A stretch of DNA of 64,000 nt, from NCBI GenBank assembly GCA_037144045.1, contig JBAWXN010000002.1, forward strand, positions 54,734 through 118,733. Reading direction: 5' to 3'. The notes below the pieces were generated by a model that was not told the origin of the DNA, made no database searches, and was given only the letters and a program-made list of their open reading frames with translations. Every line of letters begins with the position of its first letter. Within the stretch, counting starts at the first letter, position 1. Made by a program: the position numbers and the translations under genes. The DNA comes from a bacterium (GTDB lineage Bacteria; Patescibacteriota; Minisyncoccia; Phycocordibacterales; UBA1006). Shown piece by piece: positions 1 through 57,175 of the stretch.

Positions 1-441
1 GTTGGCGAAAAACCAACGGTTGCTTTTTTCGAAGGCCGTGAAGCCGTCGAGCAAGTAATTATGGAAATGCTGTACTGCAAGAAAAAACAGGTTGATTCCA
101 TTGTTCCGAAAGAAAACTTCTTCTGGCAAGTAGGTCGCGATTTTGTAAGTAAATTTGTAAATGAACGTCGACGACGAGGTATTCACACGAAAAACATTTG
201 GCAAGTGGAAGTCGAACCTGAACTTATCCATAAATACTACCCAAGCCCGTCTGAGGTTCGGATTGCCCCTGATTCGATGAAAAAGTTTGATAGCACCGTG
301 TTCCTCTATGATGATAAAACACTCTATGTATCGTCAAAGAAAAATGGCTATGCCATCCTTATGACATCCCAGGAACATCACGATACCATGCGCGCTTGGT
401 TCAATGCTATTTGGGCATCAGCACGTGCACACCAAAAATAA
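1..441 (+). CDS. TrmB-like transcriptional regulator, C-terminal part (5'-truncated at window edge; reading frame open from nt 1)
   Basis: Frame-1 ORF continues upstream of nt 1. The C-terminal region (FLYDDKTLYV...MRAWFNAIWASA) aligns with the C-terminal domains of the TrmB-like paralogs at 31014, 48805 and 52061, sharing the FxxxW/IWxAS tail. Confidence 0.45.
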   Translation, partial: VGEKPTVAFFEGREAVEQVIMEMLYCKKKQVDSIVPKENFFWQVGRDFVSKFVNERRRRGIHTKNIWQVEVEPELIHKYYPSPSEVRIAPDSMKKFDSTVFLYDDKTLYVSSKKNGYAILMTSQEHHDTMRAWFNAIWASARAHQK

Positions 442-31013: not shown

Positions 31014-31742
31014 ATGAACACGATTACCACCTCCCTTACCCAATTAGGTCTTTCAGTCCACGCTGCTGATATGTATGTATTCCTCCTTGAACGTGGACAA
31101 AAAACCGCAACTGAATTAGTTTCAGGATTACGACTCCATCGCCCGCAAGTCTATCGAGCCCTTGGCGAACTGCACGAATCACAACTTATTGTTCAAACCA
31201 CTTCTGGAAGTCAGAAAAAGTATTACGCTGAACCACCCAAGAAACTCGACCGCCTTGCCAAAGATGTTGCCGATCGCATTACCACTATCATTCCAGAACT
31301 CGAGGAACGCAGCTTACGCAAAAATAACCAACCTTTTGTGAAAATACTTGAAGGATCCAAAGGGATACGAGCCGTGTTCGACGACCTTGTGGAATCATGC
31401 AGCAAAGGCGAGATTTTTTATCGGTACACCTCGGAGCTTGATCTCGATAAAGTGAATAGCTTCCTTCCCAAAGATTATCGGATACGTCGTGACACAAAAA
31501 AACTTGAGCGGTTCGTTATTAGTAATAAATTATCCGGAAGTCAAAAAAAACAACGCCTCGAACGTACCCTAAAATTTATTCCTCAAGATGACCCGTTTAA
31601 TCAAAATATTATTGAACTGATCTATGCAAATAAGGTCGCCATTATTGACCTGAACACTCAGACGAGCCTCCTGATCGAAAATGAAAGTATTGCAGCATTT
31701 CAAAAGGTAATCTTCCGAAATTTGTACAAACGACTCATATAA
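31014..31742 (+). CDS. TrmB-like transcriptional regulator
   Basis: N-terminal wHTH LGLSVHAADMYVFLLERGQKTATELVSGLRLHRPQVYRALGELHESQLI, plus the C-terminal domain shared with the paralogs. Confidence 0.6.
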   Translation: MNTITTSLTQLGLSVHAADMYVFLLERGQKTATELVSGLRLHRPQVYRALGELHESQLIVQTTSGSQKKYYAEPPKKLDRLAKDVADRITTIIPELEERSLRKNNQPFVKILEGSKGIRAVFDDLVESCSKGEIFYRYTSELDLDKVNSFLPKDYRIRRDTKKLERFVISNKLSGSQKKQRLERTLKFIPQDDPFNQNIIELIYANKVAIIDLNTQTSLLIENESIAAFQKVIFRNLYKRLI

Positions 31743-47011: not shown

Positions 47012-47040
47012 TAAAACCGGACAGTACGTCCGGTTTTATA
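47012..47040. terminator. bidirectional Rho-independent terminator
   Basis: CCGGAC-agtac-GTCCGG with A4/T4 flanks. Confidence 0.5.
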
Positions 47041-47698
47041 GTGCTTTGTACAATGAAAATATGAGTGCCAGTTGGTCGCCAGGATCAGTACGAGCATCGA
47101 AGAATTCAACACGTTGATCTACTACTTGTAATCCCACTGAGCCAAAGAGGGTATTAAGCTCGTCTTTCGTAAAAAAGTAATACGAGACACCAAATTTTTC
47201 AAACTGTGAATCAGGTGAAATTTTAGGTCGGAACCCAAGGAACCGCTGTGTTTCTTTTGAAAGAGAAACATTAAGCACGTAGCCACCTGATTTCACGACA
47301 CGCTGTATTTCAGATATATATTGATTCCAATCAATAGGATCAAGGTGCTGGAGTACTCCAATATCAGTAACCGCATCAAACGAATTATCAACAAGGGGAA
47401 TGTCGCGTACGTCACCGTGAACAAATCGCGCACGATCAGCATATCCTTCACGTTTGATTTCGCGATTACCTTTTTGAACCACATCATTAATATATTCAAG
47501 TCCGATAACACGGTTTCCATCAGCAACTAATTTTCCTATCCAAAGCCCACGACCTGCACCTACGTCTAACACCAACGCATCAGGCGCAAGAGGGGGAAGT
47601 ACTTGCAAGGCAATGTGATGATAGGGAATATGAGTCCACACATCAGAACCAGTACGATACGCAATTTCAAAATAATTTTTCTGAGCACTGTAATCCAT
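47036..47698 (-). CDS. class I SAM-dependent methyltransferase
   Basis: Motif I VLDVGAGRG, motif II-like RFVHGDVRDIP, post-I acidic residue. Has a small-molecule (UbiE/Type 11) rather than DNA-MTase character. 220 aa. Confidence 0.7.
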   Translation of the reverse strand: MDYSAQKNYFEIAYRTGSDVWTHIPYHHIALQVLPPLAPDALVLDVGAGRGLWIGKLVADGNRVIGLEYINDVVQKGNREIKREGYADRARFVHGDVRDIPLVDNSFDAVTDIGVLQHLDPIDWNQYISEIQRVVKSGGYVLNVSLSKETQRFLGFRPKISPDSQFEKFGVSYYFFTKDELNTLFGSVGLQVVDQRVEFFDARTDPGDQLALIFSLYKAL

Positions 47699-47751: not shown

Positions 47752-48726
47752 TCACTTGTTCTTGTACTCGTTCACCATGCGTACCTCTAGATGAGCAAGT
47801 GGGTGAAGTGGAGTAGGGAGGTTGTCTAATGTGACCCATTTGATTTCATCAAATTTATGCGGCTCACCATTTATGACTTGTTCGCGATCTACTTCAACGA
47901 GGAAAATCATACATAACCAATGTCGCAAACCTCGATCTGATGTACGAAATAAATCATGGTATCCTAGGAAATTTATTTCTTTTGGAGTAACACCATATTC
48001 TTCTCGTAATTCTTTATGAACGGTTTGCACGATCGAATCACCGAATTCAACACGACCACCTCCGAAGTCCCATGCACCATGTTCGTCATTACATTGAATA
48101 CTGCGCTTGTTCATTAAATAATTTCCTTGACCATCATGGCATACATAACAAATAGTAATTGCTGGATAGTCGAGCCCTCTCCGCGACTCAATTTGTTTTC
48201 TTAGTGTGTCATGTTCTCCGAAACATTCGGAAATTACTTTTTTATTTACTTCAAAATTTTCTTCGAAAGAATAATTCGAATTAACTACATAGTTGAAGCA
48301 GGTCGTCCGATCATACACCTCGTTATAAAAATTACAGAAAGATAAGATAGTAGCGACACCTCGTTCCTCGAACAAGGTCATAGGCTTCTCTGATGAGACC
48401 ATATTAATGACAATGTCTCGCCTCGGGTCAAACAAAACACAAAAGTCTCGAGGATTGCGTACGCCATCAAAAATATTTCCCAAATCCTTACTTGAATTAT
48501 TTTTTGCGTGATTAGCAAAAAAATCTGGATCAATTTTTAAAAACTCTTTTGATTGATTGGTTATTCGTTGCGTGTAATCAAATAATGATTCACCTTCATG
48601 CCGTGGAAACTGTTGTTTCAAGTAAGAAGATAGTTGAACCCGCTTATAGTTAAATTGCTCTATAAGAAAATTTCCAAGTGTTGTTTTGCCGGTCCCTGTA
48701 GAACCAATGATAAATACATTTTTCAT
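47752..48726 (-). CDS. fusion protein: N-terminal nicotinamide-riboside-kinase-like P-loop kinase plus C-terminal Nudix hydrolase
   Basis: N-terminus MKNVFIIGSTGTGKTTLGNFL and DPDFF resemble human NRK1 (MKTFIIGISGVTNSGKTTLAKNL; QDDFF). The C-terminus FGGGRVEFGDSIVQTVHKELREEYGV is a canonical Nudix box. Confidence 0.5.
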   Translation of the reverse strand: MKNVFIIGSTGTGKTTLGNFLIEQFNYKRVQLSSYLKQQFPRHEGESLFDYTQRITNQSKEFLKIDPDFFANHAKNNSSKDLGNIFDGVRNPRDFCVLFDPRRDIVINMVSSEKPMTLFEERGVATILSFCNFYNEVYDRTTCFNYVVNSNYSFEENFEVNKKVISECFGEHDTLRKQIESRRGLDYPAITICYVCHDGQGNYLMNKRSIQCNDEHGAWDFGGGRVEFGDSIVQTVHKELREEYGVTPKEINFLGYHDLFRTSDRGLRHWLCMIFLVEVDREQVINGEPHKFDEIKWVTLDNLPTPLHPLAHLEVRMVNEYKNK

Positions 48727-48804: not shown

Positions 48805-49620
48805 ATGTCAGACAATATTCGACAACATAAACCCTCCACGAACCCCGAGGACCTGTTATCTAGACTAGGCCTCAGCGATAAAGAATCACATATCTACCTC
48901 GACTTGTTACAAAACGGTCCACGACCTGTCGCAGTTATTGCCAAACGCGCCGGAGTAACGCGCACCAATGGATATGACCTCGTAAAAAACCTCGAGAAGA
49001 AAGGACTCTGTTTTAGCAGTGGAACCACCTATGGTAAAAAAATTCATGCTCATGATCCTGTCGTATTCAAAGAAATTATTGCAGAAAAAAAGCGATCTCT
49101 TGATCACTTAGCAGCAGAACTTAACGACAGTGTTCATGTCTTTAAAAAAACAAAAACGACACCCTACACCAATCATGAGGTCACCTATCTGGAGGGTACA
49201 GAAAATATTAAGAAAATATTTCCCATGATGGCAGCACCTCATGTTTCACAGGTATATGGTGTTGGCTCTGAATTAGAACTCGAAGAATATGTTGGTCGTG
49301 AAACACTTGAGCAATTCCATGAGCAGCGTAAGCGCAATAACACCCACCTTTCAGTCCTCCGAGCAGGACCCCAACGTCTTTCGGGAAATGCGTTTCACGA
49401 TGATGTCGCCTATTTGCGCGAAGTCCGGATTCGCCCTAAAGGTAAGGTTCGACTGAAATCGCAGCTGTATTTATTTGATAACACCATCATTTTCTTAAAC
49501 CTATTCGACAAACCATTCGCAACCATTATTCACAACGAACCCATGTTTATTATGTTTCACTCATGGTACGAATTCATCTGGAATGCTTCTGAAACAGTGG
49601 TTTCACGGAAAAGTAAATAA
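48805..49620 (+). CDS. TrmB-like transcriptional regulator
   Basis: N-terminal wHTH LGLSDKESHIYLDLLQNGPRPVAVIAKRAGVTRTNGYDLVKNLEKKGL. The C-terminal domain ends in the FHSWYEFIWNAS motif shared with the paralogs. The coding sequence carries seven GTTTCAC/GTGAAAC heptamers. Confidence 0.6.
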   Translation: MSDNIRQHKPSTNPEDLLSRLGLSDKESHIYLDLLQNGPRPVAVIAKRAGVTRTNGYDLVKNLEKKGLCFSSGTTYGKKIHAHDPVVFKEIIAEKKRSLDHLAAELNDSVHVFKKTKTTPYTNHEVTYLEGTENIKKIFPMMAAPHVSQVYGVGSELELEEYVGRETLEQFHEQRKRNNTHLSVLRAGPQRLSGNAFHDDVAYLREVRIRPKGKVRLKSQLYLFDNTIIFLNLFDKPFATIIHNEPMFIMFHSWYEFIWNASETVVSRKSK

Positions 49621-49690: not shown

Positions 49691-51190
49691 TTAATTAATG
49701 AGAGCAATAATATCTTGCTCTTCCTCATCAATGAGTTTAGCTAACTGACTTTTAGTTACATAGCGAACTTCAGCGATTTGCGCACCGCGGTAATGAGGAC
49801 TCACGCGCGCAGACTTTTCAATATCCACTTCATAAATCATAGCGCGAGTTTTTATACCCGCCTCACGATGACGCCAATCAGGCACCGCAACATCACCTAA
49901 AAACTTTAACGGTTTTCCACTCAGTTGGGTTTCAAGTTTTGTTGTAACCTTTCTGGTAAGCGCCTCTTCGAAGGTAGTATCCTTTGAAGGTACCATATAC
50001 CCACCAGGGAAACGAAATTTTCTCTCGTCTGACGATGCATACCTAACAATCGCAATTTTACCTTTCGCATTTTTAATGATAGCGCGTACCTGCATAAACA
50101 GCAGCACCTTCGGCTGTCGCAACTGTGCAGCAATAATTCCATGCGCATACGTCACATTAAGTGATTTATGCGACAGTACACGTCTCCGCAAATCAGTGGC
50201 GTTTACATCTGGTATTTCTTCAACACCATACACCGGAAACCTTCCCGTAGGAATGTAATGCTTTCCAAAGCCATCACGACCTTCAATAAGACATACGTCA
50301 TCATTAGCAAGATCTGGTTTCTGAATAAGTGAGGCAATTTGTTTTTCAATTTCAGTAGTCCAAACGCTGTTATAGCGCTGGTTGCGTAATGGAAAAATTT
50401 CATACTGCCTATCGCCATACCCAGCTTCAGTAATTGCTTCTTCAAAAAGTTTTTTGCGAACCCAGAATGGTAACACATTTCTCCCTGAAGGGAACGAGCG
50501 ATCGCACGCTAAAAAAATAATAACCATTTCGCCACGAGCAAACGCTTCATGAACTACTTGCATGTGCCCAACTGTTGGACCATCGGGACTGTGTGTACGC
50601 ATCACTGTCGATGCAACTAAAAATTTCTTTTTAGGACCTGTCAGCAATGGAGTAACCTTGACTGCCTCCAAAAGAAGTGACCAGTGTTTTTTTGGATCAA
50701 AGCCTGCTTTGTCATCCAAAATTAAATTCATGTATGGCTTCTTCGAAAAATCGGCATAGTGAGTATTACCCTGTTCGGGATTTTCGTTTACATAGGTAAA
50801 AATTATTCCTAACTTTTCAAACATTGCCTTGTACTGTTCCACATGATCATCTTTCGATGATGTGTAAATAACAAGCACTATGTCTTTTCGTGCGGAAAGA
50901 GCCTGAAGGGTCGCGAGTGCTCCATCAAAAAAATTTCTAGATATGTCACCACCCGTATAACTGGAACCTAGTACGGTGTCGTGCAAATCTACAAAAATGT
51001 AAATTTTGTCCCATTCGCGTGTACGAGCTTTTACAAACTCAGCAAACCATTTCGCAATAAGGGAATCTTTCATTAATTCTTCTATATTCATTTTTAATCG
51101 TTTTGCGTATTTAACCATTAAAATATGAATAAGTAAAGGGTCTTCATATTTGTAGCATGTCGTGCTATTGTGATCAAAATAAAACAGCAT
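49691..51190 (-). CDS. three-domain protein: HAD-like phosphatase plus NadM-type nicotinamide-nucleotide adenylyltransferase plus degenerate Nudix domain
   Basis: N-terminal HAD-like domain (IYIFVDLHDTVL; LILDDKAGF). The central part matches archaeal-type NMNAT: PTVGHMQVVHEAF (TxGH), NSVWTTEIE (cf. NSIWVSYVE) and NATDLRRRVL (cf. SGTEIRRRML). C-terminus FPGGYMVPSKDTTFEEALTRKVTTKLE is a Nudix box with the catalytic Glu residues lost. Confidence 0.5.
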   Translation of the reverse strand: MLFYFDHNSTTCYKYEDPLLIHILMVKYAKRLKMNIEELMKDSLIAKWFAEFVKARTREWDKIYIFVDLHDTVLGSSYTGGDISRNFFDGALATLQALSARKDIVLVIYTSSKDDHVEQYKAMFEKLGIIFTYVNENPEQGNTHYADFSKKPYMNLILDDKAGFDPKKHWSLLLEAVKVTPLLTGPKKKFLVASTVMRTHSPDGPTVGHMQVVHEAFARGEMVIIFLACDRSFPSGRNVLPFWVRKKLFEEAITEAGYGDRQYEIFPLRNQRYNSVWTTEIEKQIASLIQKPDLANDDVCLIEGRDGFGKHYIPTGRFPVYGVEEIPDVNATDLRRRVLSHKSLNVTYAHGIIAAQLRQPKVLLFMQVRAIIKNAKGKIAIVRYASSDERKFRFPGGYMVPSKDTTFEEALTRKVTTKLETQLSGKPLKFLGDVAVPDWRHREAGIKTRAMIYEVDIEKSARVSPHYRGAQIAEVRYVTKSQLAKLIDEEEQDIIALIN

Positions 51191-52060: not shown

Positions 52061-52822
52061 CTACTTATTCCAGAGCTCTTTGAACACTTCACGCATATTG
52101 TGTGCCATTACAGAATCATGAATTTCAACCAGATAACAAGGTTTCTGCGCTGTAACAATAAGAACTATATACGAGCCAATAATCCACTGAGTACCGGTAA
52201 TATTATTTGTTCCTTTCCAGAAACGAATGTTTCTTTGGTTGATTTTTTCACTCTGCATTTGTGACTCAATATCTGAATCATTTGAAAACATTTTAAGGTT
52301 CACTTCTTTAGGTGCGTGTTTCCAAAACCAAACAATCCAATTTTTGTATTTTTCGACAAAGGTATGATCCTGAAAACCCCACCACGTAGGGTCATTTGCC
52401 AGATTACTTTCGATCCACCGAGGTGTTGCATCATGTAAATACTTATCAATATCTTCCTCGGCAACGAATCTGATTTTTGGTATTGAAAAAGTAGTAGATT
52501 GAGATACCAGTTTTAAAGCATCTTTTAATTCATGGAGACCTTCTTCCTTTTCCCTAAACTCTTTTCTGTCGTGCTCCAAAATTTTGTCTATTTCTTCAGG
52601 TTGAGCAGGGAGATAGTATAATGTCTTGCTTCCAAGATCTTCAATAATAAGACCTCGTGCTTTTAGCTCGTTTGCAACGCTATACACTGTAGTCCGATTT
52701 ATACCTGTTTTTCGTGAAATAGTTACTGGTGCAATTTTTCCGCTTTCTAAGATTAATTTATACACCTTTTTTGCTTTTATAGTTAACCCAAGCTTTTCTA
52801 AGATTTTGTCTAAGTTATCCAT
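52061..52822 (-). CDS. TrmB-like transcriptional regulator
   Basis: N-terminal wHTH LGLTIKAKKVYKLILESGKIAPVTISRKTGINRTTVYSVANELKARGLI. C-terminal domain ending HNMREVFKELWNK. Divergent from the ABC transporter operon. Confidence 0.6.
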   Translation of the reverse strand: MDNLDKILEKLGLTIKAKKVYKLILESGKIAPVTISRKTGINRTTVYSVANELKARGLIIEDLGSKTLYYLPAQPEEIDKILEHDRKEFREKEEGLHELKDALKLVSQSTTFSIPKIRFVAEEDIDKYLHDATPRWIESNLANDPTWWGFQDHTFVEKYKNWIVWFWKHAPKEVNLKMFSNDSDIESQMQSEKINQRNIRFWKGTNNITGTQWIIGSYIVLIVTAQKPCYLVEIHDSVMAHNMREVFKELWNK

Positions 52823-52983
52823 ACGACTTTATAGTACCAGTGTTGTCTATTTATTGTCAACACATTTTTTTATTATTCTATTAAAGTGTTAGAAAATAAG
52901 TGTTTTTTTGTTATTATATATTGACATATATTGATATATGTGCTATATATAATAAGTATTATTAATCGGATTTATTAAACATT

Positions 52984-53808
52984 ATGAAAAAATATTCAAT
53001 CATTATTATTGGAATAATTGCAGTAATCGCCCTTATATTAGGCATTACAACATTATCAAGAAACAAATCTATATCTGTAGCAGAACGAGTTGTAAGTAAA
53101 GGAGAAATCCGGATTGGATACATTGTGTATCCACCATTACTCCTTAAGAACCCAGTAACAGGCGAACTTTCAGGCATTTCATACGACCTCGTTGAAGCTG
53201 CAGCAAAAAATCTGGGACTAAAAACTAACTGGGTCGAAGAAGTCGGATGGGGAACTGCAATCGAAGGACTAAAAACAAAGCGTTACGACATTCTAGGAAC
53301 TCAAATGTGGCCAAACTCTGCTCGTGCACGTGAAGCTGCATTTTCATTAGCTCCAATGAATAGTACTATCTATCCCTACGCACGACCTAACGATTATCGC
53401 TTTAATTCTCTTGAAAGTATTAATTCCTCGAATATTACTATCGGGGTTCTCGACGGAGAAATGGCATCATTTATTGCAGAACAAGATTATCCTAACGCTA
53501 AAGTAAACGCGCTTCCTCAACTTTCATCTTATTCTGAAGTTTTTCTTAATATTCTTAACAAGAAATCAGATGTTGCATTTGTCGAACCATCAGTTGCAAA
53601 TGATTTTCTGGAAAAGAATCCCGGCTCTGTTGTACGTATAGGAAACGAGCCCGTTCGTACTCTTGGGAACAGTTTCGCTTTTGCTCGAGGAGAAGATTCT
53701 ATGGTTACTATGTGGAATATTGCTATGCAGGAGCTTATTAACGATGGTACCGTAAAACGAACTCTCGAAAAGTACAATGTTTCTAAAGAATACACTATTA
53801 CTAAATAA
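52984..53808 (+). CDS. ABC transporter substrate-binding protein (family 3, polar amino acid type)
   Basis: Signal/TM anchor, then an SBP_bac_3-like domain (IRIGYIVYPP...SGISYDL...YDILGTQM). Confidence 0.7.
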   Translation: MKKYSIIIIGIIAVIALILGITTLSRNKSISVAERVVSKGEIRIGYIVYPPLLLKNPVTGELSGISYDLVEAAAKNLGLKTNWVEEVGWGTAIEGLKTKRYDILGTQMWPNSARAREAAFSLAPMNSTIYPYARPNDYRFNSLESINSSNITIGVLDGEMASFIAEQDYPNAKVNALPQLSSYSEVFLNILNKKSDVAFVEPSVANDFLEKNPGSVVRIGNEPVRTLGNSFAFARGEDSMVTMWNIAMQELINDGTVKRTLEKYNVSKEYTITK

Positions 53809-53820
53809 TTAATCACCTAC

Positions 53821-54474
53821 ATGTTCCAAGTTCTCATACAATACCACCACCTCTGGCTACATGGGTTTTTCATGACCTTGAAGCTACTAGGCACTATAAT
53901 ACTGATTGGAATTCCTACAGGGATCACTCTCGGAGTAATTGGGGGAAAATTTAGCACAGAACTTGGAGTCATTATCAAGGGCGCAAGATTCGTAACTAAA
54001 GTCATCCCGGTTCTTGTTCTTTTGTTTTGGCTACACTATCCACTACAAGGAATGTTGCACGTTGTAATAAATCCATTTTGGACAACCGTTATTGCACTGG
54101 GCCTTATTAATATGATTGCAACAGCATCCATTATTAGTATTGAACTACAACTAATTCCAAAAGCATACCGAGAAGCAGGAATCACTTTAGGCATGAATTC
54201 ACTGCAAATTGTGAAGTATATTGAACTTCCACTTTTACTCCGTCGAACCCTTCCCCAAATTCTCTTAGGTCAGGCATCCATACTCGAGTACACATTATTC
54301 GCTAGTCTCATTTCTGTACCAGAATTATTTCGTGTCGCGCAAACTATTAACGCTATGGCTTATAAACCTATTGCCATTTATTCACTTCTTGTTATTTTTT
54401 TTCTATTAATCCTAGGACCTCTTCATATATTAATTAACTGGATCAAGGAAAAATATATTGCCGAATATGCTTAA
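53821..54474 (+). CDS. ABC transporter permease (His/Glu/Gln/Arg/opine family)
   Basis: Five TM helices with the EAA-like loop region (EAGITLGMNSLQIVKYIELPL). 217 aa. Confidence 0.7.
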   Translation: MFQVLIQYHHLWLHGFFMTLKLLGTIILIGIPTGITLGVIGGKFSTELGVIIKGARFVTKVIPVLVLLFWLHYPLQGMLHVVINPFWTTVIALGLINMIATASIISIELQLIPKAYREAGITLGMNSLQIVKYIELPLLLRRTLPQILLGQASILEYTLFASLISVPELFRVAQTINAMAYKPIAIYSLLVIFFLLILGPLHILINWIKEKYIAEYA

Positions 54475-55588
54475 CATTACCCACGCTACAAAAAAATATT
54501 CTCGAGGAAATTTAGTTCGAGGCATAACCGACGTTTCTTTAAAAGTAGAGACCGGGGAAATCGTTTGTATTCTCGGCTCAAGCGGTTCAGGTAAAAGCAC
54601 CTTACTTCGGGTTGCTGCCGGACTTGAACCACTTGATAGTGGATCACTTACACAAGATCCCAACATTTTTTCTAGTTATGTTTCACAAGAATACACTCTT
54701 TGGCCCCATCTCACTATTATTGAAAACATGACTCTCGCACCAAAACTTAACACAGCCACATCAATTGAAAATCTTCGCACGGAAGCACTTACCCTGCTCA
54801 AGCGATTTGAATTAGAAGATTATGCCGATACTTATCCCACGCAACTTTCTGGAGGTCAACGTCAACGCGTAGCGCTCTTACGAGCGGTTATTATGAAACC
54901 AAGAATTCTACTCTTGGATGAAATTACATCAGCTCTCGATCCGGAACTTACCAAAAGCGTTCTTGATCTTATTCGAGCACTAGCTAAAGATGGGTACACC
55001 ATGATTATCGTAACGCATCACATGTCATTCGCTTTATCAGTTGCAGATAGAATTATTTTTCTCAAAAACGGCTCTGTCGCAGCTGACCAAACTACTCATG
55101 AATTCTTTTTTAATCAGTCAAACCCAGAGATAAAATCCTTCATTATTGATATAGCAAAAAAAGATGACATGGTTGAAATTTTCAAAGGCGTTGAACAGTT
55201 TCAAGCCTATCATATAGGACTCATCAGAAAACTTCCTGAATGCTCAATTATTCATGTTGCAGGCGCCGTTGGCAATAGTTGGTATATTCCAATGGGTGAC
55301 TTTTATGAAAAATACGAACACCTCCGTCACCAAAAGAAAATAATTTGGAAAATGGTTACTTACGAACAGGGAGTCATTGATAAAAGACTCCTCAAGGAAT
55401 TTCCAGAATATAATCAATACCGACAAATGCCTCGAGCATTGCAGAACCCTGCAAACTATAATGTATTTGGTGACACGGTCATTACGCAAATCTTCGAAAA
55501 CGAACCTACGATTATTCAGATAAGAAGCCAGCATGTTGCGAATGCATACTTAAGGTTTTTTGAAGAACTTTGGGAGCTGTCAAAATAA
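54458..55588 (+). CDS. ABC transporter ATP-binding protein with a C-terminal TrmB-C-domain-like extension
   Basis: Walker A GSSGSGKST, signature LSGGQRQRVAL, Walker B LLLDEITSALD, H-loop. The extra 130-aa C-terminal region is not part of the ABC fold. Its blocks DFYEKYEHLRHQKKIIWKMV and HVANAYLRFFEELWELSK parallel HTFVEKYKNWIVWFWKHAPKEV and MAHNMREVFKELWNK of the adjacent TrmB-like protein. Confidence 0.7.
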   Translation: MPNMLNITHATKKYSRGNLVRGITDVSLKVETGEIVCILGSSGSGKSTLLRVAAGLEPLDSGSLTQDPNIFSSYVSQEYTLWPHLTIIENMTLAPKLNTATSIENLRTEALTLLKRFELEDYADTYPTQLSGGQRQRVALLRAVIMKPRILLLDEITSALDPELTKSVLDLIRALAKDGYTMIIVTHHMSFALSVADRIIFLKNGSVAADQTTHEFFFNQSNPEIKSFIIDIAKKDDMVEIFKGVEQFQAYHIGLIRKLPECSIIHVAGAVGNSWYIPMGDFYEKYEHLRHQKKIIWKMVTYEQGVIDKRLLKEFPEYNQYRQMPRALQNPANYNVFGDTVITQIFENEPTIIQIRSQHVANAYLRFFEELWELSK

Positions 55589-55612
55589 AAAGACTGTTAC
55601 AGTCTTTTTATT
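55588..55612. terminator. bidirectional Rho-independent terminator
   Basis: AGACTG-ttac-AGTCT with A5/T5 flanks. Confidence 0.5.
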
Positions 55613-56504
55613 TTCCATGAAATTTTTTATGAACTTCACGTAATTGTTTATCGGTAACATGGGTATAGACTTGAGTTGTAGCAATATTGGCATGTCCCAG
55701 CATTATCTGCACACTACGCATATCAGCACCATTTGAAAGTAAGTCAGTTGCGAAACTGTGACGCAATACGTGCGGGGTAACCTTTTTATAAATACCTGCC
55801 TTGATTGCGTAGTGTTTCACAATGCGTTGAATAGACCGCGGCGTAAGTCGAGCATCAGAACCTTCATTAAAAGATTCACTTACAAATAATGGATCCGCCA
55901 TATCTTTACGTGATTTAAGGTAATCTCGCAAAACACTTTTAGCGCGATCTGATAGAAACACTACGCGCACCTTGTCTCCTTTTCCTCGAATTGAAAACTC
56001 ATCCTTAGATAAATCAATATCACGATTGAGTGAACATAATTCAGAAAGACGTAGCCCTGTAGAAAAAAAGAGTTCTAAAATAGCTAAATCTCGAGCGTTG
56101 TCACTTGCTGCTGCAAGGAATCGTTTGAGTTCAGCTCCCGAAAGAGGGTCAATGTCTCGCGATCCCGTCTTTGCAAGTTCGATCACATCCGGAGCCACTG
56201 AAGGAATGTTACACTTCTTCATGTATTTCAAGAAAGAGCGTAGTGCAATTAAATAGTAATTCTGCGTTGCCTTTTTCATAGTTCCCTGAGTTTGTCCTTT
56301 TACCTTAACTCCTTTAGAGCGATTCAAGTTAAGGCGAAATTCACGAATCATGGTCTCAGTAATATCAGCAGGGGATTTCACTTTACCAAACTCAAAAAAA
56401 ACATTGAGATAGTGCTCATAATTCCGAACGGTATTAAGTGCTCGCCCTTTTTCAATTTCTACATATTCAAGGAATTGGCGCTTCAGATCGTGAACGTCAT
56501 ACAT
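55608..56504 (-). CDS. tyrosine site-specific recombinase (XerC/XerD family)
   Basis: C-terminal catalytic region LRHSFATDLLSNGADMRSVQIMLGHANIATTQVYTHV (R..HxxR...Y). The start was placed at the internal MYDVHDLKRQFLEY because the track ORF extends to 56633. Confidence 0.8.
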   Translation of the reverse strand: MYDVHDLKRQFLEYVEIEKGRALNTVRNYEHYLNVFFEFGKVKSPADITETMIREFRLNLNRSKGVKVKGQTQGTMKKATQNYYLIALRSFLKYMKKCNIPSVAPDVIELAKTGSRDIDPLSGAELKRFLAAASDNARDLAILELFFSTGLRLSELCSLNRDIDLSKDEFSIRGKGDKVRVVFLSDRAKSVLRDYLKSRKDMADPLFVSESFNEGSDARLTPRSIQRIVKHYAIKAGIYKKVTPHVLRHSFATDLLSNGADMRSVQIMLGHANIATTQVYTHVTDKQLREVHKKFHGK

Positions 56505-56523
56505 ATGTAAGTATTGTACCACG

Positions 56524-56829
56524 TTGACAAAAAGCATAAAAAGGGGATACTTGAACAAATCTTCTATTATGAGCATAAGAACTGCTTTTCTAGCAATTGC
56601 CTGGCTTCTTGGCATTATTATACAATTAGCCATTACCGGGATTATTATTTTTATAGCGTACCACCTTAAAAACTATAGTGCCGTGCACTTTTCGGAGTCC
56701 ACCTCTCACTTCACCTCACTAATTCCGATTGGAATCTGGATCCTTCAGTTATTCTTTTTCTTGCAATGGGCTGGGCTAATACCTAATAAAATAAGGAATT
56801 CCCAGGAAAGACACGAACTATTATCCTAA
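56524..56829 (+). CDS. small membrane protein (101 aa)
   Basis: Three hydrophobic helices, followed by a strong terminator. Confidence 0.3.
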   Translation: MTKSIKRGYLNKSSIMSIRTAFLAIAWLLGIIIQLAITGIIIFIAYHLKNYSAVHFSESTSHFTSLIPIGIWILQLFFFLQWAGLIPNKIRNSQERHELLS

Positions 56830-56911: not shown

Positions 56912-57175
56912 ATGTTAACGACAGCCAAAAAACAAAAAGTGATGGCGGCATCAGCTCGAAAAGACGGAGATACTGGTTCACCAGAAGTACAAATCGCCCT
57001 TATTTCTGAACAAATCAGTCAATTGACGACTCACTTGCAAACCCACAAGAAAGACAACCATTCTCGCCGAGGATTGGTGATTATGGTAGCGCAACGACGA
57101 AAACTCTTAAATTACCTTAAGAAGTCAGACGTTAAAGCATACGAAAAAACACTTAAACTTGTTGGATTAAAGTAA
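56912..57175 (+). CDS. rpsO: 30S ribosomal protein S15
   Basis: Canonical S15: GSPEVQIALISEQISQLTTHLQTHKKDNHSRRGL..MVAQRRKLLNYL. 87 aa. Confidence 0.9.
   Translation: MLTTAKKQKVMAASARKDGDTGSPEVQIALISEQISQLTTHLQTHKKDNHSRRGLVIMVAQRRKLLNYLKKSDVKAYEKTLKLVGLK

What the first reader, a model, noticed from the sequence alone, without database searches (positions are those of the whole stretch)
52061..55588. ABC-transporter ATPase carries a C-terminal domain homologous to the C-terminal domain of the adjacent divergent TrmB-like regulator
The last about 130 residues of the ATPase (54458-55588) are outside the ABC fold. They align block-for-block with the C-terminal domain of the TrmB-like protein encoded divergently at 52061-52822: FYEKYE versus FVEKYK, IIQIRSQHVANAYLRFFEELW versus YLVEIHDSVMAHNMREVFKELW. 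The same tail motif (hydrophobic-x-x-W-x-x-I/L-W) ends the TrmB paralogs at 1-441 and 48805-49620. In TrmB this domain binds the effector sugar. A shared sensor domain on both the regulator and the transporter motor would let one ligand control expression and transport activity, analogous to the MalK regulatory domain but built from a different fold. Notably the transporter is of the polar-amino-acid type, not a sugar transporter.
Basis: seen in the sequence. Interest (0 to 1): 0.65.

Follow-up and report, generated by a model that had tools for sequence, protein, structure and literature searches.

The report
ABC importer ATPase with TrmB-type tail
In a group of tiny uncultured bacteria (CPR/Patescibacteria), the motor protein of an amino-acid-type nutrient importer carries an extra end domain copied from the non-DNA-binding half of the lineage's TrmB-like gene regulators; this is a previously undescribed kind of add-on domain for this class of transporter, and it probably controls the motor.

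Summary
The ATPase (54458/54467-55588) is a complete GlnQ/HisP-type ABC domain (residues 1-231) followed by a 145-residue tail with no Pfam match. The tail matches a genuine TrmB winged-helix regulator by BLASTP (33% identity over 132 aa, E=2e-29). Its profile finds 759 proteins: tail-bearing ABC ATPases, and TrmB regulators with 1 to 7 copies of the domain. The adjacent divergent regulator (52061-52822) is a remote member. A domain HMM scores all 120 of its family at 14.7-34.9 bits, against 12.7 or less for shuffled controls. The two models have the same 12 secondary-structure elements in the same order. Both are non-catalytic phospholipase-D-like folds, equivalent to the first subdomain of the TrmB effector domain.

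TrmB's sugar contacts lie mostly in a second subdomain that is absent here. Only 8 of the 55 conserved tail positions recur in the adjacent regulator family. The conserved operator overlaps the regulator's own promoter.

The fusion is conserved in more than 115 protein clusters and 24 species, and the tail is as conserved as the ATPase core. It most likely acts as a new type of C-terminal regulatory or dimerising domain. ModC/ModE is the closest precedent.

The parts
54458..55150 (+). ABC ATPase nucleotide-binding domain (residues 1-231). The probable true start is the ATG at 54467, which overlaps the permease stop by 8 nt.
55151..55588 (+). C-terminal tail (residues 232-376 plus stop): a non-catalytic PLD-like domain of the TrmB-regulator type.
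   Evidence: No Pfam hit. BLASTP to the TrmB-wHTH protein P0152 gives E=2e-29. The tail profile finds 759 proteins. Model pLDDT is about 85-95 with 12 elements in the same order as the regulator domain. Foldseek gives PLD-family hits (poxvirus F13-like lipase E=1.5e-4, Terrestrivirus PLD E=3e-4). Mean pairwise identity is 61% in the tail against 58% in the ATPase core.
55445..55495 (+). Most conserved tail motif, NPANYNVFGDTVITQIF (residues 330-346). It is a beta-hairpin, inferred to sit where catalytic PLDs carry HxK(x)4D.
   Evidence: Invariant or nearly invariant columns. Strands E330-334 and E337-342 in the model, 373-aa numbering. No HxKxxxxD is present in the tail sequence (read directly). 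The structural equivalence to the HKD site is an inference and was not tested at residue level.
53821..54474 (+). ABC permease (a single gene, presumably a homodimer).
   Evidence: BPD_transp_1 E=2.9e-9. GlnP/ArtQ/EhuC-like, below cutoffs. Syntenic in all related loci.
52984..53808 (+). Family-3 (polar amino acid/opine type) substrate-binding protein with an N-terminal membrane anchor.
   Evidence: SBP_bac_3 E=4.8e-18. Best NCBIfam hits are EhuB, LAO and cystine binding proteins, all far below cutoff.
52921..52949 (+). Candidate operon promoter: TTGACA-N17-TATATA preceded by TG.
   Evidence: Sequence read. The TTGACA and TG-n-TAT elements are conserved in the alignment of 11 intergenic regions. 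The consensus scanner did not list it because the last base of the -10 is A.
52841..52862 (.). Imperfect palindrome TGTTGTC-N8-GTCAACA, the candidate operator of the adjacent regulator.
   Evidence: One match in the 64 kb window against 0.14 expected. Conserved in 11 loci next to the regulator's start codon. Also present beside relatives of the regulator that have no transporter next to them, and absent upstream of the transporter where the regulator is absent. Overlaps the -35 of a 10/12 minus-strand promoter match at 52860-52831.
52598..52822 (-). Winged-helix DNA-binding domain of the adjacent regulator (residues 1-75).
52061..52498 (-). C-terminal PLD-like domain of the adjacent regulator (residues 109-253 plus stop), a remote homologue of the ATPase tail.
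48805..49620 (+). TrmB-like paralogue (271 aa) carrying the same domain.
   Evidence: PF01978 E=2.5e-11. Domain HMM 36 bits, covering positions 6-142 of 144.
31014..31742 (+).
   Evidence: Domain HMM 39.7 bits on residues 104-239; wHTH matched by phmmer.
1..441 (+). C-terminal part of another TrmB-like paralogue, cut by the window edge.
   Evidence: Domain HMM 46 bits, covering positions 11-142 of 144.

Best explanation
The ATPase of a polar-amino-acid-type (PAAT) type I ABC importer of a CPR/Patescibacteria bacterium has acquired, by an ancient gene fusion, the non-DNA-binding domain of the lineage's TrmB-like regulators. That domain is a phospholipase-D-like fold without the catalytic HKD residues. 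It is equivalent to the first subdomain of the TrmB effector domain and to the C-domain of TrmBL2.

I infer that the domain serves as the transporter's C-terminal regulatory domain. The two tails of the ATPase dimer would pair beneath the nucleotide-binding domains, as PLD-like halves and the regulatory domains of MalK, ModC and MetN do. They would set how easily the ATPase dimer can close, in response to a cytoplasmic signal sensed through the tail-specific conserved polar motifs (EQFQAYH, GD-W, QNPANYN). The signal is most plausibly the imported compound or a metabolite derived from it. This would be trans-inhibition with a new fold.

Shown: the domain boundaries, the homology, the fold class, the loss of catalytic residues, the conservation of the fusion, and the operon.

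Inferred: tail dimerisation, ligand binding, and the effect on ATPase activity.

The adjacent regulator is a remote paralogue of the tail. It is probably autoregulated through the palindrome at 52841-52862. Nothing shows that it shares a ligand with the tail.
For: - Homology.
- Fold: the regulator model matches PLD nucleases and TrmB/TrmBL2. The ATPase model gives PLD-family Foldseek hits that cannot come from the ABC domain. Secondary-structure order is identical. The top recurrent weak Pfam hits of domain members are PLDc_2, DUF7436 and Regulator_TrmB.
- Functional constraint: more than 115 clusters of about 373 aa at 49-71% identity with full coverage, more divergent fusions at 37-45%, and 24 GTDB species. 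The tail is as conserved as the ATPase core, with 55 positions at least 90% conserved.
- Position: the tail starts within about 5 residues of the end of the GlnQ-like core, where the regulatory domains of type I importers sit (PMC4245157).
- Precedent: ModC and ModE share a sensor fold.
Against: - No ligand, pocket or dimer has been demonstrated. No multimer model could be run.
- The PLD-like subdomain contributes only one of TrmB's seven sugar contacts, and TrmBL2, the closest architectural relative, is not known to bind an effector. The domain may therefore be an oligomerisation or scaffold module rather than a sensor.
- The existence of regulators with 2-7 tandem copies fits a protein-protein or assembly role at least as well as ligand sensing.
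- The conserved tail residues could equally be an interface with the ATPase core or with a partner protein.
Confidence: 0.4

Rival explanations
1. The tail is a constitutive dimerisation or stability module. It only holds the two ATPase subunits together or stabilises the complex, and senses no signal.
For: PLD-like halves characteristically pair (established knowledge of Nuc and two-HKD PLDs; the fold match is). Tandem arrays of 2-7 copies in regulators suggest self-association. TrmBL2-type proteins lack the sugar-binding subdomain.
Against: The tail family has many conserved polar and aromatic residues that are not shared with other subfamilies of the domain. That is more than a generic dimer interface usually needs. 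Most PAAT ATPases (GlnQ, HisP, ArtP) work without any such domain (profiles of about 240 aa).
Confidence: 0.25
2. The tail is a docking platform for TrmB-like regulators. Because it is homologous to their C-domains, it forms mixed dimers with a regulator and holds it at the membrane depending on the transport state, as MalK does with MalT. This would couple transport to transcription.
For: The tail shares a domain with a large paralogous regulator family; the window alone has four members. The closest regulators keep many tail motifs, with 19 of 55 positions shared and 33% identity. A TrmB-like gene lies beside the operon in 12 of about 20 loci, and second TrmB-like genes are often nearby. MalK-MalT is a precedent.
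Against: The adjacent regulator is only a remote relative, with 8 of 55 positions shared. No regulator of the tail's own subfamily lies in the window. Eight loci lack an adjacent regulator. No interaction data exist.
Confidence: 0.15
3. One reading: the tail and the adjacent regulator bind the same effector, so one ligand controls both expression and transport (strict ModC/ModE logic).
For: Homologous domains sit on both proteins. The arrangement is divergent and adjacent in 12 loci. The ModC/ModE precedent applies.
Against: The conserved polar motifs differ completely: NPANYN versus FTGTQW, and EQFQAYH has no counterpart. The operator overlaps the regulator's own promoter, is centred about 100 bp upstream of the operon start, and is found with regulators that have no transporter nearby. 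TrmB's sugar-binding subdomain is absent.
Confidence: 0.1
4. The fusion is an artefact: an assembly or frameshift join of an ATPase gene to a downstream regulator fragment.
For: None beyond the general risk in metagenome assemblies.
Against: The same 373-aa architecture occurs in more than 115 independent clusters and 24 species-level genomes from many samples. There is no wHTH remnant. The tail is under strong conservation.
Confidence: 0.01

Closest known systems
ModC / ModE (molybdate importer ATPase and molybdate-responsive repressor)
   Same: A type I ABC importer ATPase carries a C-terminal domain of the same fold as the effector domain of a transcription factor. In ModC the domain mediates trans-inhibition by keeping the ATPase dimer open (PMC4245157).
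   Different: The fold differs: TOBE/Mop beta-barrel in ModC/ModE, alpha/beta PLD-like here. The ligand here is unknown. The tail and the adjacent regulator do not share conserved polar residues, so a common ligand is not indicated.
MalK, MetN and OpuA/ProV C-terminal regulatory domains
   Same: They occupy the same position directly after the ABC core, are expected to pair beneath the ATPase dimer, and regulate transport. The MalK regulatory domain binds the regulator MalT.
TrmBL2 and TrmB (archaeal TrmB family, PF01978)
   Different: TrmB's second, sugar-binding beta-barrel subdomain is absent (250 aa against 338 aa). PF11495 is not detected in the window proteins. These are bacterial (CPR) proteins. 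In the ATPase the domain occurs without any DNA-binding domain.
PLD superfamily nucleases and lipases (Nuc, NucT, Zucchini, poxvirus F13)
   Same: Same fold.
   Different: The tail has no HxK(x)4D motif (read from the sequence; family consensus). It is presumed non-enzymatic.

Membership tests
ABC transporter ATPase, polar amino acid (PAAT; GlnQ/HisP/ArtP) type | Walker A, Q-loop, LSGGQ signature, Walker B with catalytic Glu, and H-loop | tested here: met
   G40-K46-S47 (GSSGSGKST), LSGGQRQR, LLLDE and THH are read in the sequence. They are invariant in 57 homologues. ABC_tran E=7e-29.
ABC transporter ATPase, polar amino acid (PAAT; GlnQ/HisP/ArtP) type | Operon with a family-3 binding protein and a HisM/GlnP-type permease | tested here: met
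   SBP_bac_3 and BPD_transp_1 lie immediately upstream. The arrangement is conserved in all related loci.
ABC transporter ATPase, polar amino acid (PAAT; GlnQ/HisP/ArtP) type | Equivalog-level match to a characterised ATPase, which would allow substrate assignment | tested here: not met
   The best hit, GlnQ, scores 191.7 bits against a cutoff of 379, and all others are also below cutoff. The substrate is unknown.
TrmB family regulators (PF01978) | N-terminal TrmB-type winged helix-turn-helix | tested here: met
   Met for the regulators at 52061-52822 and 48805-49620 (E=1e-10 and 2.5e-11). The ATPase has none, so it is not a member. It carries only the accessory domain.
TrmB family regulators (PF01978) | Sugar-binding effector domain (PF11495), including the second beta-barrel subdomain with the Gly320/Glu326 site | tested here: not met
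PLD-like (phospholipase D/nuclease) superfamily | The alpha/beta PLD fold | tested here: met
PLD-like (phospholipase D/nuclease) superfamily | Catalytic HxK(x)4D motif | tested here: not met
   The tail has no such motif. Its only HxK (HQK, residues 291-293) lacks the Asp, and the His is not conserved (consensus).
Known ABC importer regulatory domains (TOBE/MalK-ModC, MetN C2/NIL, CBS) | Sequence or structural match of the C-terminal extension | tested here: not met
ModC/ModE-type shared-sensor system | The same ligand-binding residues are conserved in both the ATPase domain and the regulator domain | tested here: not met
   Only 8 of 55 conserved tail positions are shared with the adjacent regulator family, all of them core residues.
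ModC/ModE-type shared-sensor system | The regulator controls the transporter operon | tested here: inconclusive
   The regulator is divergent and adjacent in 12 of about 20 loci. However, the only conserved palindrome overlaps the regulator's own promoter and also accompanies regulators that have no transporter.
ABC importer regulatory domain (functional class) | Ligand- or partner-dependent modulation of ATPase activity or transport | not testable with these tools
   This needs biochemistry or multimer modelling.

The most novel reading that the evidence does not exclude
The tail is a decoy copy of the regulators' own assembly domain. It forms mixed PLD-like dimers with one or more of the many TrmB-like regulators of these reduced genomes and holds them at the idle or active transporter. 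The importer would then act as the sensor for a whole paralogous transcription-factor family. This is a MalK-MalT-like 'trigger transporter' built by domain sharing, in organisms with very few other signalling systems.
Probability: 0.12. Interest if true: 0.8.

Novelty: new variant of a known kind. Interest (0 to 1): 0.55.

Why it matters
C-terminal regulatory domains of ABC importers are known in only a few folds (TOBE, MetN C2/NIL-type, CBS). Amino-acid-type ATPases of the GlnQ/HisP class are generally regarded as lacking them. This is a fourth, unrelated fold. It is conserved across many CPR/Patescibacteria lineages and unannotated in Pfam and NCBI names.

It links post-translational control of nutrient uptake to the domain used by the lineage's abundant TrmB-like regulators. 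CPR bacteria depend on imported building blocks, so a conserved switch on an importer is a concrete handle on their physiology.

The work also defines an unmodelled domain family found in single and in 2-7 tandem copies. It clarifies that bacterial 'TrmB-like' regulators of about 250 aa are TrmBL2-like, without the sugar-binding subdomain.

Tried and rejected
1. Direct BLASTP of the ATPase or its tail against the three window regulators gave E=0.3-0.5, so it was not usable alone.
2. The first word-indexed search with the tail found only 10 fragments and wrongly suggested rarity. The exhaustive search and the full-length search corrected this.
3. hhalign of the shallow tail profile against the regulator family was weak (probability 16%).
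4. The strong hhalign result (96%) was discarded as evidence because the 48805 paralogue was in both alignments. It was redone cleanly.
5. A profile search of PDB sequences found nothing significant, so the link to TrmB is structural only.
6. Fold search against afdb50 was unavailable.
7. Literature searches for TrmB with Patescibacteria, with candidate phyla radiation, with PLD-like, and with phospholipase D/fold/winged helix returned nothing.
8. I looked for the operator upstream of the transporter in loci lacking the regulator and found none.
9. I checked whether the regulator family is always beside the transporter. It is not: P0035 sits beside an unrelated 577-aa gene.
10. The context of the closest regulator, P0152, was uninformative because the contig is only 1.6 kb.
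11. Trying to locate the PF11495-matching members, to map the match onto the TrmB profile, did not find them in the 10 sequences tested.
12. The artefact or frameshift explanation was rejected.
Full report
**1. What is in the sequence**

The region holds a divergent gene pair and a three-gene importer operon:
- a TrmB-like regulator at 52061-52822(-), 253 aa;
- a family-3 substrate-binding protein with an N-terminal membrane anchor at 52984-53808(+);
- one permease at 53821-54474(+);
- an ATPase at 54458-55588(+).

Public gene calls start the ATPase at the ATG at 54467, giving 373 aa and an 8-nt overlap with the permease. Pfam and NCBIfam assign the expected families. The GlnQ profile covers ATPase residues 4-230, and every ABC motif is present and invariant in homologues. 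All NCBIfam scores fall far below equivalog cutoffs, so the substrate is unknown. Residues 232-376 have no Pfam match even at E<=1. The window comes from a CPR/Patescibacteria genome assembled from a metagenome: identical proteins are labelled 'MAG ... [bacterium]', and relatives are Parcu-, Nomura-, Magasanik-, Uhr- and Kerfeldbacteria among others.

**2. Is the tail homologous to TrmB-like C-domains?**

It does align the extreme C-termini in register.

An exhaustive HMMER search with a profile of the tail found 759 proteins at E<=1e-3 and 197 at E<=1e-10. They have three architectures:
- ABC ATPase plus tail (377-395 aa);
- TrmB wHTH (PF01978) plus one copy (241-256 aa), with matches spanning the whole tail;
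- TrmB wHTH plus 2-7 tandem copies (up to 1079 aa).

The window's tail aligns to one such regulator, P0152, at 33% identity over 132 residues, E=2e-29. That settles family-level homology.

**3. Is the adjacent regulator itself related?**

I built an HMM from 208 domain copies taken from those hits; none came from the window. Its scores on the window proteins, for single comparisons, were:

| Window protein | Bits | E | Coverage |
|---|---|---|---|
| Fragment at 1-441 | 46 | 2e-16 | full length |
| Paralogue at 48805 | 36 | 4e-13 | full length |
| Adjacent regulator | 24.7 | 1e-9 | residues 165-252 |

As a control, the HMM scores all 120 listed relatives of the adjacent regulator at 14.7-34.9 bits (median 23.7). 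Reversed sequences reach at most 3.1 bits, and 578 shuffled sequences at most 12.7.

A profile-profile comparison gave 96% probability over 144 columns. I discount that result because the 48805 paralogue was present in both alignments. The clean rerun gives P=1.8e-4 over 85 columns.

The adjacent regulator is therefore a real but remote member of the same domain superfamily. The first block (FYEKYE versus FVEKYK) is not: the HMM register pairs FYEKYE with WIVWFW. The terminal signature is [FY]-x-x-[LI]-W. A fourth TrmB-like paralogue lies at 31014-31742.

**4. Fold**

The regulator model (pLDDT 89) and the ATPase model (pLDDT 88) show the same twelve elements in the same order in the two domains: beta-alpha-beta-alpha-alpha-beta-alpha-beta-beta-beta-beta-alpha.

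- TrmB 3qph and 2f5t 10.2, TrmBL2 10.0.

Foldseek of the ATPase model against viral structures gives ABC hits and also PLD-family hits, which can only come from the tail: crocodilepox F13-like lipase E=1.5e-4, a Terrestrivirus PLD E=3e-4, and Orf virus envelope protein E=1.5e-3. Among 31 diverse domain members, the three most recurrent weak Pfam hits are PLDc_2, DUF7436 and Regulator_TrmB.

The tail has no HxK(x)4D motif, so it is a non-catalytic PLD-like domain.

**5. What the domain corresponds to in TrmB**

According to the TrmB-family review (PMC4158304), the TrmB effector domain has two subdomains. The first is an eight-stranded sheet flanked by helices. The second is a beta-barrel that supplies six of the seven sugar-contacting residues. 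The first subdomain supplies only Ser229. TrmBL2 (264 aa) lacks the sugar-binding part.

The domain here is about 145 aa and alpha/beta, and 122 of the 233 residues of 2f5t align to it. It therefore equals the first subdomain only. The 250-aa regulators are TrmBL2-like in architecture. The statement 'this domain binds the effector sugar' is largely incorrect.

**6. Conservation of the fusion and its context**

A full-length search found more than 115 clusters of about 373 aa at 49-71% identity with full coverage. More divergent fusions at 37-45% identity also exist, and 24 GTDB species carry the fusion. All sit in the same operon of binding protein, permease and ATPase.

The tail is as conserved as the ATPase core: 61% against 58% mean pairwise identity. 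Fifty-five positions are at least 90% conserved.

A regulator of the adjacent type lies divergently upstream in 12 of about 20 loci with enough flank. In many of the others a UbiE-like methyltransferase follows the ATPase, and in two clusters it is fused to it.

**7. Does one ligand serve both proteins?**

Of the 55 conserved tail positions, 19 keep the same residue in the closest single-copy regulators. Only 8, all core residues, do so in the adjacent regulator family. The tail's polar motifs (EQFQAYH, GD-W, QNPANYN) have no counterpart there.

The intergenic region has one conserved palindrome, TGTTGTC-N8-GTCAACA, at 52841-52862 (1 match against 0.14 expected). Four observations bear on its role:
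- It overlaps the -35 box of a 10/12 promoter match for the regulator itself.
- It is centred about 100 bp upstream of the inferred operon start; the candidate promoter is at 52921-52949.
- It accompanies relatives of the regulator that have no transporter nearby.
- It is absent upstream of the operon where the regulator is absent.

This points to autoregulation. Control of the operon by this regulator is possible but not shown.

**8. Mechanism**

The best-supported reading is a new type of C-terminal regulatory domain on a type I importer ATPase. The domain sits where such domains sit, is under strong constraint, and has lineage-specific conserved polar residues. It also belongs to a fold whose halves typically pair, which suits the two-fold symmetric ATPase dimer.

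I therefore favour signal-dependent gating of ATPase dimer closure, that is, trans-inhibition (confidence 0.4).

The closest known logic is ModC/ModE, where the ATPase regulatory domain and the repressor's effector domain share a fold (PMC4245157). Tail pairing, ligand binding and the effect on the ATPase are all inferences.

**9. Novelty**

I found no Pfam model, no informative database name (sources call it 'polar amino acid transport ATP-binding protein') and no paper in the searchable library. It is a new variant of a known kind: an ABC importer ATPase with an accessory regulatory domain.

Noticed in passing
Related proteins P0136 (524 aa), P0141 (1079 aa), P0147 (1061 aa) and others: TrmB winged-helix proteins carry 2 to 7 tandem copies of the same PLD-like domain. 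Among the best 149 representatives, 59 have one copy, 25 two, 34 three, 22 four, 6 five, 2 six and 1 seven. I know of no description of such arrays; they suggest the domain is a self-associating module.
   Followed up: partly
The 64 kb window therefore holds five copies of the domain.
   Followed up: partly
window 52841-52862, with promoter candidates at 52831-52860 (-) and 52921-52949 (+): The conserved palindrome TGTTGTC-N8-GTCAACA overlaps the -35 of the regulator's own promoter. It is conserved in 11 loci and also beside relatives of the regulator that lack a neighbouring transporter.
   Followed up: yes
L002 6130-6909; L004 6164-6937; L005, L007, L009, L010, L011, L016, L017, L020, L023 directly after the ATPase; L021 3048-3764; proteins P0319 and P0377: A UbiE-like SAM methyltransferase (about 240-259 aa) is a frequent fourth gene directly after the tail-bearing ATPase. 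It occurs mostly in loci that lack the divergent regulator. In two clusters it is fused to the ATPase, giving ABC core, tail and methyltransferase in 606 and 621 aa. This may hint at the fate of the substrate. The window has no such gene: its methyltransferase at 47036-47698 is a different one.
   Followed up: partly
window 47752-48726 (-) and 49691-51190 (-): Two unusual multi-domain proteins lie between the TrmB-like genes. One combines a P-loop kinase-like N-terminus with a Nudix domain (324 aa). The other is a 499-aa protein with an NMN-adenylyltransferase-like centre and a Nudix-like C-terminus. All matches are weak.
   Followed up: no
window 55608-56633 (-) and 56912-57175 (+): A XerC/D-type tyrosine recombinase gene converges on the ATPase with only 19 nt between the stop codons, followed by rpsO. 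The same recombinase and rpsO neighbourhood is kept in the Uhrbacteria locus L003/L022.
   Followed up: no
L016, L018, L025 (labelled Gammaproteobacteria) and L028 (labelled Oceanicoccus sp.): Contigs carrying this CPR-type operon are filed under proteobacterial MAG names in the genome collection. This is probably mis-binning or mislabelling.
   Followed up: no
Pfam DUF7436 (PF24217): Several domain copies give weak but collinear matches to DUF7436, for example positions 50-147 against 50-149 of 153. DUF7436 may be a related, already modelled branch of the same domain.
   Followed up: partly
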